DNA of 29,333 nt from Escherichia coli (lineage in GTDB: Bacteria > Pseudomonadota > Gammaproteobacteria > Enterobacterales > Enterobacteriaceae): the NCBI RefSeq assembly GCF_003334815.1, contig NZ_QOWO01000044.1; one strand, written 5' to 3'. Position numbers and translations under genes: made by a program. This document shows positions 17,029 to 18,329 of this stretch, piece by piece. Within the stretch, counting starts at the first letter, position 1, and each line of letters starts with the position of its first letter. The notes under the pieces were generated by a model, which had not been told where the DNA came from, made no database searches, and worked only from the letters and a program-made list of their open reading frames with translations.

Positions 17029-17778
17029 TCAGATGGTCGAAATCAGCATTCTGTGACCTTCGATATCCAGACGGCGAAAATTCATCCCATAGGCCTGCGC
17101 CAGATTTGGCGGCGTGAGCACCTCTTCCCTGCGTCCACTGGCCAGCATTTTTCCACCTTTTAGCAACCACGCCCGATGCGCATGACGCAATGTGTGGTTG
17201 AGATCGTGACTGCTCATCACAATCGCCAGTCCTTGCTGACACAGCGCGCTCAGAATTTTGTCTAACGCACTTTGTTGCGCAACATCAAGACTGTTCATCG
17301 GCTCATCAAGAAGCAGCAATTGGCCTGCGGGATTGGCTTGTGGTGTGATTTGCAACACCACCGCAGCAAGACGTACGCGTTGCCATTCACCGCCGGAAAG
17401 TTGATTGGTGCTACGTCCGAGTTTGTCATCAAGAGCCAGCGCCCCTGCGACATCATTCAGTAGTTCGGTACGCGTTTTATCGTGCTGATGCAGTGTCAGG
17501 TAGTGCCAGACCGGCATTGCAAACGGCGGCGTCTGCTGTTGTGAAAGATAGGCGCGATGCAGCGCGAGTTTTGTTGCGGACCATGCTTCCAGTGGTTGCC
17601 CCGCGAACTGAATGCTTCCCTTACCGCTGGTCATTCCGGCCATTCGCGCCAGTAAGGTACTCTTACCCGCGCCATTCGGCCCCACCAGGTGCAGGATCTC
17701 CCCAGCCCGAACCTCGCCAGAAAGCGGCCCCAGGCGGGTAGATTCCGCAACATCTTGTAACTGCATCACAATAGACAT
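17029..17778 (-). CDS. btuD: Vitamin B12 ABC transporter ATP-binding protein (249 aa)
   Basis: ORF track; Walker [13 protein letters not shown] signature LSGGEWQR, Walker B LLLDEP. Confidence 0.95.
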
Positions 17779-18329
17779 TATTTTGCCAACGCCAGTTTAA
17801 TGCTTTCCATCACAATGGGATCTTCCGGCGTCATATCCGGGGAAAAACGCTGGATGACTTTTCCGTCCCTGCCAACCAGGAATTTTTCAAAATTCCATAA
17901 AATATCATCCGGGTACAGCGGTGCACGGCCTTTGCTGACCATACGGGCATAGAATCCGCTCTCTTCCGGCGCGACTGCGGTCGGCGCTGCGGCAATCAAT
18001 TTTTGATACAGCGGATGGCGTCCTTCGCCATTAACTTCAATCTTACTGAACATCGGGAACGTCACCCCCCATGTGGTGGTACAGTAAGTTTTAATCTCTT
18101 CATCGCTGCCCGGTTCTTGTTCCAGAAACTGGTTGCACGGGAATCCCAGCACCATAAAACCTCGATCGACCCAGGCTTTCTGAATATTCTCCAACTGCTC
18201 ATATTGCGGCGTTAAGCCACACTTTGAGGCGACATTGACAATCAACAGCACATTACCGGCGAACTTCTCCAGCGTGGTCACTTCACCGTCGATATCTTTC
18301 ACTACGGTCGTCAGAATGGAATCTTGCAT
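17778..18329 (-). CDS. btuE: Glutathione peroxidase-family thiol peroxidase (183 aa)
   Basis: ORF track; GPx motifs NVASKCGLT and WNFEKFLV; 1-nt stop/start overlap with btuD (TAATG). Confidence 0.93.

What the first reader, a model, noticed from the sequence alone, without database searches (positions are those of the whole stretch)
17776..17780. btuE (glutathione peroxidase) embedded in btuCED with a 1-nt stop/start overlap
A peroxidase gene sits between the B12 transporter permease and ATPase genes, and its stop overlaps the btuD start (TAATG), implying translational coupling. This is a long-known oddity of the operon; BtuE is not required for B12 transport.
Basis: partly seen in the sequence, partly recalled or inferred. 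Interest (0 to 1): 0.2.

Follow-up and report, generated by a model that had tools for sequence, protein, structure and literature searches.

The report
Known btuE–btuD one-base gene overlap
This is the ordinary, long-described E. coli vitamin B12 transporter operon btuC-btuE-btuD, in which the stop codon of the peroxidase gene btuE shares one base with the start codon of the ATPase gene btuD; this is one of the commonest gene junctions in bacteria and probably makes btuD translation depend on btuE translation.

Summary
On the minus strand the window reads GCAAAATAATGTCT: btuE stops at TAA (17780..17778) and btuD starts at ATG (17778..17776). The genes are E. coli btuC, btuE and btuD, and the segment is 100% identical to several E. 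coli chromosomes.

The feature is already known. The pair is listed at distance -1 in a published E. coli table, and the literature says btuE lies between btuC and btuD without a role in B12 transport.

Translational coupling is untested for this pair, but comparison supports it:
- btuD has no Shine-Dalgarno sequence (-1.5 kcal/mol, against -7.4 for btuE).
- In 80 of 80 related species the stop-to-start distance stays between -4 and +3 nt, through at least eight junction sequences. No upstream sequence or RNA structure is conserved.
- The one looser junction (Rahnella, 30 nt) has a strong ribosome-binding site.
- Four relatives without btuE have btuC and btuD overlapping directly.

BtuE looks like a thioredoxin-type two-cysteine peroxidase rather than a strict glutathione peroxidase.

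Side observation: the btuC–btuE link is often broken by insertions, but btuE–btuD never is. An AT-rich box upstream of btuE travels with btuE; its function is open.

Interest is low.

The parts
19405..19433 (-). Promoter-like site of btuC (TTTTCA, 17 nt, TAAAAT). A published transcription start maps 8 nt downstream, at window position 19397.
   Evidence: Consensus scan. The Kim et al. 2012 TSS table lists NC_000913 position 1793201, 25 nt upstream of btuC, with the same upstream sequence. The conversion to window coordinates is mine.
18392..19372 (-). btuC, permease of the vitamin B12 ABC importer (326 aa).
   Evidence: ORF; NCBIfam NF003001 equivalog, 574.7 bits; RefSeq annotation.
18330..18391 (-). 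62-nt btuC-btuE spacer. It is not an overlap, and its length varies from 23 to 1,984 nt among relatives.
18366..18376 (-). AT-rich box CTATGATTAAA, 47 nt upstream of the btuE ATG. It is a degenerate duplicate of the btuC 3' end. Its function is not established; candidates are a -10-like promoter element, a translational enhancer or a processing site.
   Evidence: No consensus promoter is called there and no TSS is listed there in the Kim 2012 table.
18335..18339 (-). Shine-Dalgarno sequence AGGAG of btuE.
   Evidence: Sequence; duplex with the 16S rRNA 3' end is -7.4 kcal/mol; the GGAG is invariant in the Escherichia/Citrobacter/Salmonella alignment.
17778..18329 (-). btuE, a Cys-type GPx-family peroxidase (183 aa) with Cys37, Gln67, Cys83, Trp145 and Asn146.
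17776..17780 (-). The TAATG junction: btuE stop TAA (17780..17778) and btuD start ATG (17778..17776) share base 17778.
   Evidence: The surrounding 41-mer is identical in 5,031 of 5,426 complete E. coli genomes.
17029..17778 (-). btuD, ATPase of the vitamin B12 ABC importer (249 aa). It has no Shine-Dalgarno sequence.
   Evidence: The full-length match to PDB 1L7V chain C starts at the same Met1.

Best explanation
The locus is the E. coli btuCED operon. btuC is transcribed from a promoter just downstream of the ihfA terminator. btuE has its own strong ribosome-binding site after a 62-nt spacer. btuD has none, and its ATG shares one base with the btuE stop codon. The most likely mechanism is termination-reinitiation: a ribosome that terminates at the btuE TAA restarts at the overlapping ATG, so BtuD output is tied to btuE translation. 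Shown: gene identities, boundaries, the overlap, the missing ribosome-binding site and the conservation of the tight junction. Inferred: that btuD initiation really depends on btuE translation. The likely history is that btuC and btuD were once directly overlapping, as in relatives without btuE. btuE was then inserted between them in part of the Enterobacterales and took over the role of upstream coupling partner.
For: Ribosome-binding sites: btuD scores -1.5 kcal/mol against the anti-SD, compared with -7.4 for btuE, -6.0 for nlpC and -6.1 for ihfA. Across 80 species the median is -2.9 for btuD and -6.4 for btuE.

Junction conservation: the stop-to-start distance is -4..+3 nt in 80 of 80 species. 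The classes are TAATG 57, TAGTG 3, TAAATG/TAGATG 8, TAAnATG/TTG 6, TAAnnnATG 4 and ATGA/GTGA 2. Further tight junctions are Dickeya (+2), Pantoea (0), L093 (-1) and Siccibacter colletis (-1).

No other conserved signal: synonymous variability in the last 10 btuE codons is 0.71, against 0.72 gene-wide. RNAalifold finds no conserved structure, with 2 pairs at -1.18 kcal/mol. Proximity itself is therefore what is kept.

The exception fits: Rahnella has a 30-nt spacer and an SD of -8.0 kcal/mol.

Loci without btuE have btuC and btuD overlapping by 4 nt (L086, L088, L095) or 1 nt (L094).

Experimental precedent: three other native E. coli -1 pairs lose 80-100% of downstream translation when the distance is raised to 38 nt. 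The btuE/btuD pair is listed at -1 in that paper's table.

No promoter-like or terminator-like site lies at the junction.
Against: No experiment on this pair was found. A few orthologues combine an overlap or near-overlap with a decent SD (L093 -7.9, L038 -6.9, L046 -6.4), so a weak SD is a tendency, not a rule. The A/U-rich, poorly structured start region (unpaired probability 0.52 against 0.40 in control windows) could also support de novo initiation. Xenorhabdus and Plesiomonas have btuC and btuD 52 and 105 nt apart without btuE, so coupling is not obligatory for a working BtuCD. BtuE and BtuD are not known to form a complex ('CMPLX not'), so the usual stoichiometry rationale for coupling does not apply. 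The Rahnella compensation is a single case.
Confidence: 0.72

Rival explanations
1. The overlap is incidental genome compaction. btuD is initiated de novo and independently, on an A/U-rich unstructured start region that needs no Shine-Dalgarno sequence. The tight junction persists only because nothing selects for a spacer.
For: Distances of -1 and -4 are the commonest junction classes genome-wide. The start region is slightly more open than internal btuE windows (0.52 against 0.40 unpaired). BtuE and BtuD do not form a complex. Xenorhabdus and Plesiomonas have unlinked btuC and btuD.
Against: The distance stays within -4..+3 nt in 80 of 80 species through at least eight junction sequences. In the same genomes the neighbouring btuC-btuE spacer drifts from 23 to 1,984 nt and accepts foreign genes. 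The only relaxed junction has gained a strong SD. Tested E. coli -1 pairs are coupled.
Confidence: 0.2
2. Coupling works through RNA structure. A hairpin sequesters the btuD AUG and is melted by ribosomes translating the end of btuE.
For: The E. coli minimum-free-energy fold puts UAAUGUC in the 3' arm of a 7-bp stem with four G-U pairs.
Against: The fold is not better than shuffled sequence (z = -1.39; 17 of 200 shuffles fold as well). RNAalifold on 24 species finds only 2 pairs and no covariation. The junction is less paired than control windows. Synonymous sites are not constrained.
Confidence: 0.05
3. The real btuD start is the second in-frame ATG (codon 5, window 17766..17764). In that case there would be a 9-nt spacer between the btuE stop codon and the start, and no overlap.
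For: An ATG at this position is common among relatives, and it has no worse an SD than ATG1 (both -1.5).
Against: Many species have no start codon at that position, only the one touching the stop (e.g. L028, L039, L044, L047, and the Erwinia/Pantoea group). The NCBIfam BtuD profile aligns from residue 1. RefSeq and the crystallised protein use Met1.
Confidence: 0.03

Closest known systems
E. coli K-12 btuCED operon (b1711-b1710-b1709)
   Same: Same genes, order, strand, boundaries, 62-nt btuC-btuE spacer and -1 btuE/btuD overlap, as tabulated for K-12. The pheST-ihfA upstream and nlpC-ydiV-selO downstream context is also the same.
   Different: Only strain-level substitutions. For example, BtuD residue 88 is Met here and Thr in the crystallised K-12 protein. 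The window differs at 192 of 29,333 positions from strain ECCHD184.
Native E. coli -1-nt overlapping pairs shown to be coupled by termination-reinitiation (hyfH-hyfI, ydbH-ynbE, menD-menH; Huber et al. 2023, PMC10666635)
   Same: Same junction geometry (1-nt overlap) in the same organism. In those pairs downstream translation depends steeply on the stop-to-start distance.
   Different: btuE/btuD itself was not tested. Unlike hyfH-hyfI, its two products are not subunits of one complex.
btuC-btuD operons without btuE (Enterovibrio and related contigs; also Haloferax volcanii btuC/btuD at -4)
   Same: The ATPase gene start overlaps the stop of the upstream gene by 4 or 1 nt (H. volcanii entry).
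   Different: There the upstream partner is the permease, the true complex partner. In E. coli and its relatives an unrelated peroxidase gene occupies that position.
Yeast Gpx3/Hyr1 (PDB 3CMI) and other thioredoxin-dependent two-Cys GPx-like peroxidases
   Same: It is the best solved-structure match for BtuE (E = 5.6e-39). The peroxidatic Cys, the resolving Cys, and the Gln and Trp-Asn motifs align.
   Different: BtuE has an extra stretch of roughly 20-30 residues (about 112-141) that is absent from the monomeric GPx chains. Its reductant preference was not testable here.

Membership tests
E. coli btuCED operon | Gene order btuC-btuE-btuD on one strand, each protein an equivalog of the named family | tested here: met
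   ORFs. NCBIfam equivalogs NF003001, NF007900 and NF002981 all score above their curated cut-offs. RefSeq annotation agrees.
E. coli btuCED operon | Chromosomal context pheS-pheT-ihfA upstream and nlpC downstream | tested here: met
   All 5,426 complete E. coli genomes hold a match to the 16900..19500 segment, and 5,420 of them cover at least 80% of it.
E. coli btuCED operon | The three genes are co-transcribed | not testable with these tools
   A published TSS lies 25 nt upstream of btuC, and a weak one (5 reads) lies inside btuC. No terminator-like site with a convincing stem lies between the genes. No transcript data were available.
Glutathione peroxidase family (Pfam PF00255), Cys-type two-Cys subclass | GSHPx domain | tested here: met
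   PF00255, E = 3.6e-47, residues 6-111.
Glutathione peroxidase family (Pfam PF00255), Cys-type two-Cys subclass | Peroxidatic Cys (not selenocysteine) together with the Gln, Trp and Asn catalytic residues | tested here: met
   Cys37, Gln67, Trp145 and Asn146 are present. Cys37, Trp145 and Asn146 are invariant in 63 of 63 ungapped orthologues, and Gln67 in 62 of 63.
Glutathione peroxidase family (Pfam PF00255), Cys-type two-Cys subclass | Resolving Cys in the 'Cys block', which marks thioredoxin-dependent members | tested here: met
   Cys83 is invariant in 63 of 63 orthologues. It aligns with the Cys of yeast Gpx3 in ...qfCqlnyGVTFP.
Glutathione peroxidase family (Pfam PF00255), Cys-type two-Cys subclass | Physiological reductant (glutathione or thioredoxin) | not testable with these tools
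   PMC3018469 summarises earlier work as showing use of thioredoxins A or C in vitro. The primary paper is not held.
Gene pair translationally coupled by termination-reinitiation | Same-strand pair with a -4 or -1 overlap, or a spacer of only a few nt | tested here: met
   A -1 overlap.
Gene pair translationally coupled by termination-reinitiation | Translation of the downstream gene depends on translation of the upstream gene up to its stop codon | not testable with these tools
   This needs reporter fusions with premature stop codons. Only indirect support is available.
Gene pair translationally coupled by termination-reinitiation | The tight junction is conserved among orthologous pairs | tested here: met
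   80 of 80 species lie at -4..+3 nt. The only exception found is Rahnella at +30 nt, which has a strong SD.
Gene pair translationally coupled by termination-reinitiation | Products are subunits of one complex (an enriched feature, not a defining one) | tested here: not met
   The pair is listed as 'CMPLX not' in the Huber et al. table. The partner of BtuD is BtuC.

The most novel reading that the evidence does not exclude
btuE-btuD, not btuC-btuE-btuD, may be the evolutionarily indivisible expression unit. In 80 of 80 species btuE is welded to btuD, while the btuC-btuE link has been broken by foreign genes, often on the opposite strand, in at least five species. An AT-rich box (CTAT[G/T]ATTAAA, 44-64 nt upstream of the btuE ATG) travels with btuE. 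Where it is separated from the btuC coding end, the coding copy drifts to GC-rich codons and the btuE-proximal copy stays AT-rich. This would mean that the 3' end of btuC doubles as a cis element for btuE-btuD, either an internal stress or stationary-phase promoter or an mRNA processing or translation signal. BtuD supply would then be set through the peroxidase gene rather than through its complex partner.
Probability: 0.3. Interest if true: 0.35.

Novelty: already known. Interest (0 to 1): 0.12.

Why it matters
It matters little. The arrangement has been in the literature since the operon was sequenced, and the overlap class is among the commonest in bacteria. The practical point is for anyone engineering or deleting btuE, or cloning btuCED for B12-dependent enzyme expression: changes to the end of btuE are likely to change BtuD levels. 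The comparative results add a clean natural example. When an unrelated gene was inserted into a coupled permease-ATPase pair, the coupling position was inherited by the inserted gene.

Tried and rejected
- **Hairpin at the junction.** A structure sequestering the btuD start is not better than shuffles, and no conserved structure or covariation was found.
- **Hidden conserved SD or signal in the btuE 3' end.** Synonymous variability there equals the gene average.
- **Internal sigma-70 consensus promoter.** None was called in btuE, in the btuC-btuE spacer, or upstream of btuE in the split-operon species.
- **Published TSS at the AT-rich box.** The Kim 2012 table lists none there. It has only the btuC TSS and a weak one inside btuC.
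- **GC hairpin after the box.** It was seen by eye in many species, but only 55% of cells pair, no better than slid controls. RNAalifold does not predict it.
- **B12 riboswitch or other known RNA in the operon.** Rfam finds only the Phe leader and STnc540 in the window.
- **Primary papers and data sets not held.** These were Arenas 2010 (PMC3057470), Friedrich 1986 (PMC215960), Li 2014, Thomason 2015 and the Conway 2014 supplements. What I say about the 1980s Kadner papers beyond their titles is recollection and is marked as such.
- **BtuE-BtuD fusion by -1 frameshifting.** I considered this from the sequence alone and dropped it: there is no canonical slippery heptamer before the stop.

Full report
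**Observation**

The genes are on the minus strand. The + strand at 17776..17780 reads CATTA, so the minus strand reads ...GCG TTG GCA AAA TAA TG TCT ATT GTG ATG.... The mechanical ORF list gives three ORFs. The first is a 326-aa ORF at 19372..18392. The second is a 183-aa ORF at 18329..17778, which ends in TAA at 17780..17778. The third is a 249-aa ORF that starts at ATG 17778..17776 and ends at 17029.

**Identity**

- All 5,426 complete E. coli genomes hold a match to the 2.6-kb segment 16900..19500, and 5,420 of them cover at least 80% of it. Several chromosomes are 100% identical to it, and their RefSeq features are btuC, btuE, btuD, nlpC and ihfA with the same boundaries.
- All three proteins exceed the curated NCBIfam equivalog cut-offs.
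- BtuD matches the crystallised BtuD (PDB 1L7V) from residue 1 to 249, with one substitution.
- BtuE has a Pfam GSHPx domain.
- The window is the E. coli region ...thrS-infC-rpmI-rplT-pheMST-ihfA-btuCED-nlpC-ydiV-selO....

**Is it more than chance?**

Within one genome, no. In E. coli 707 of 2,987 same-direction gene pairs lie between -8 and +6 nt; -4 is the commonest class and -1 the second. The same paper's supplementary table already lists b1710 btuE / b1709 btuD at -1 and btuC/btuE at +62. This window alone also contains a 4-nt overlap (ydiS/ydiT) and two junctions 3-4 nt apart (pheT-ihfA, thrS-infC).

Across species, conservation is the informative measure. I fetched 80 loci from one genome per species, covering Enterobacteriaceae and Erwiniaceae, with BtuE identity of 74-98%. 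In all 80, btuD follows btuE directly. The stop-to-start distance is always -4 to +3 nt, spread over these junction classes:

| Junction | Loci |
|---|---|
| TAATG | 57 |
| TAAATG / TAGATG | 8 |
| TAAnATG / TAAnTTG | 6 |
| TAAnnnATG | 4 |
| TAGTG | 3 |
| ATGA / GTGA | 2 |

In the same loci the btuC-btuE spacer ranges from 23 to 1,984 nt and never overlaps. Within E. coli, the 41-mer around the junction is identical in 5,031 of 5,426 genomes.

**Mechanism**

- *Ribosome-binding sites.* btuD has essentially no Shine-Dalgarno complementarity: -1.5 kcal/mol, against -7.4 for btuE (AGGAG), -6.0 for nlpC and -6.1 for ihfA. Across the 80 species the median is -2.9 for btuD and -6.4 for btuE.
- *No hidden signal.* Synonymous-site variability in the last ten codons of btuE is 0.71, the same as the gene-wide 0.72, so no nucleotide signal is embedded there.
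- *No RNA structure.* The E. coli junction folds no better than shuffled sequence (z = -1.39). The junction is, if anything, more open than internal btuE windows. RNAalifold on 24 species finds no structure.
- *What is conserved.* Only the proximity of stop and start is conserved. Termination-reinitiation requires exactly that, and a structure-melting model or an embedded ribosome-binding site does not predict it.
- *Experimental precedent.* Three other native E. coli pairs with a 1-nt overlap lose 80-100% of downstream translation when the distance is increased to 38 nt.

**Wider sampling**

I searched 50%-identity representatives with BtuD and looked up their contigs.

| Locus or taxon | btuE present? 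| Junction |
|---|---|---|
| Pantoea | yes | btuE-btuD, 0 nt |
| Dickeya | yes | btuE-btuD, +2 nt, GTG start |
| L093 | yes | btuE-btuD, -1 nt |
| Siccibacter colletis | yes | btuE-btuD, -1 nt |
| Rahnella | yes | btuE-btuD, 30-nt spacer; SD-like sequence at -8.0 kcal/mol |
| Enterovibrio and two unnamed contigs | no | btuC/btuD overlap by 4 nt (ATGA) |
| One further contig (L094) | no | btuC/btuD overlap by 1 nt |
| Xenorhabdus | no | btuC-btuD gap of 52 nt |
| Plesiomonas | no | btuC-btuD gap of 105 nt |

The simplest history is a directly coupled btuC/btuD pair into which btuE was inserted in part of the Enterobacterales. btuE then inherited the position of upstream coupling partner. Whether Xenorhabdus lost btuE or never had it cannot be decided from these data.

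**Caveats on coupling**

- Nobody has tested this pair in anything I could read.
- A few orthologues combine a tight junction with a decent SD.
- The A/U-rich open start could also allow de novo initiation.
- BtuE and BtuD are not complex partners.
- The Rahnella compensation is a single case.

I put the coupling mechanism at about 0.7.

**BtuE itself**

The protein has the catalytic residues Cys37, Gln67, Trp145 and Asn146. It also has Cys83, which aligns with the resolving cysteine of yeast Gpx3/Hyr1, its best solved-structure match. That is the signature of thioredoxin-dependent two-Cys GPx-like enzymes. [quoted passage not shown] RefSeq names it a bifunctional thioredoxin/glutathione peroxidase. 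That btuE sits between btuC and btuD but plays no role in B12 transport is stated in the literature. The title of Rioux & Kadner 1989 says the same. I could not read the 1980s papers.

**Side observation: btuE-btuD as the unit**

The btuC-btuE link is fragile and the btuE-btuD link is not. In Cedecea sulfonylureivorans (L016), two opposite-strand ORFs lie between btuC and btuE. In Siccibacter colletis, two opposite-strand genes (3.1 kb) lie there while btuE/btuD still overlap by 1 nt. In L031, L043 and L067, no btuC lies within 3 kb upstream and unrelated genes sit in its place.

An AT-rich box, CTAT(G/T)ATTAAA, lies 44-64 nt upstream of the btuE ATG in 61 of 75 distinct sequences.

- In short-spacer species the box is the 3' end of btuC (codons TGG CTA TTA TTA AAA). 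CTA is used at Leu320 in 32 of 55 species, against 4% of Leu codons elsewhere in btuC.
- In the Escherichia/Citrobacter/Salmonella clade it sits in the spacer as a degenerate duplicate of the btuC end (E. coli window 18376..18366, minus strand). It is nearly invariant while its flanks vary.
- In three clades a coding btuC end and a btuE-proximal copy coexist at a distance. There the coding copy has gone GC-rich (AT 0.27-0.47) while the proximal non-coding copy stays AT-rich (0.73-0.91).

That pattern argues for a non-coding function tied to btuE. What the function is remains open. By my recollection of the sigma-S extended -10 consensus (KCTAYRCTTAA), the box resembles it. However, no sigma-70 consensus promoter is called with it, and a published E. 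coli TSS table has no start there. A GC hairpin that seemed to follow the box is not supported.

**Verdict**

The finding is real and correctly interpreted, and it is already known. Its interest is low. The comparative results strengthen the coupling inference. They also add a modest evolutionary note and one unexplained cis element.

Noticed in passing
window 18366..18376 (minus strand); same element in L002-L081, 44-64 nt upstream of btuE: AT-rich box CTAT(G/T)ATTAAA upstream of btuE. It is the btuC 3' end in short-spacer species. It is a duplicated non-coding remnant in E. coli and in species with insertions. It stays AT-rich while the separated coding copy turns GC-rich. No promoter call or published TSS supports a specific function.
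   Followed up: partly
L016:1014-3000, L092:6897-10000, L031/L043/L067:1-3000, L074:1530-2103: The btuC-btuE spacer is a hot spot for insertions. Foreign genes have been inserted there in several species, among them a phosphodiesterase-like gene, a glycosyltransferase family 20 gene plus a glutamine-synthetase-like gene, an MFS transporter and MarR/TetR regulators. This splits btuC from btuE-btuD.
   Followed up: partly
L089/L090 (Xenorhabdus), L091 (Plesiomonas), L086/L088/L094/L095 (Enterovibrio-like): BtuD orthologues without btuE. Xenorhabdus keeps pheT-ihfA-btuC-btuD synteny with a 52-nt gap where btuE would be. The Vibrionaceae-like loci have btuC/btuD overlapping by 4 or 1 nt.
   Followed up: partly
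window 19373..19531 (minus strand): An Rfam hit to the enterobacterial sRNA STnc540 (67.4 bits, gathering score 38). It covers the ihfA 3' end, the ihfA terminator hairpin (19460..19436), the btuC promoter-like site and the btuC 5' UTR. The Kim 2012 table also lists TSSs inside ihfA that are assigned to btuC.
   Followed up: no
window 27314..29213 (+ strand): In the near-identical reference chromosome this stretch is annotated as a frameshifted espL1 (type III effector) pseudogene. I did not check whether the frameshift is present in the window itself.
   Followed up: no
window 6901..6904, 19773..19776, 24859..24861: Other tight same-strand junctions in the window: ydiS/ydiT overlap by 4 nt, pheT-ihfA are 4 nt apart, and thrS-infC are 3 nt apart.
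   Followed up: no
L068:3552-4300 (Leclercia adecarboxylata NCTC13032): btuD looks disrupted. tblastn aligns only residues 35-131, although the TAATG junction is intact. This may be a frameshift, a pseudogene or an assembly error.
   Followed up: no
window 17778..18329, BtuE residues ~112-141: BtuE carries an extra stretch of about 20-30 residues ([31 protein letters not shown]) that is gapped in alignments to monomeric GPx4/Gpx3-type structures. Its role is unknown.
   Followed up: no
window 17515..17517 (BtuD codon 88): BtuD has Met88 where the crystallised K-12 protein (1L7V) has Thr. This is a strain polymorphism.
   Followed up: no
window 23372..23496 (minus strand): The Phe leader (pheM attenuator) is found by Rfam at 75 bits, as expected upstream of pheST.
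   Followed up: no
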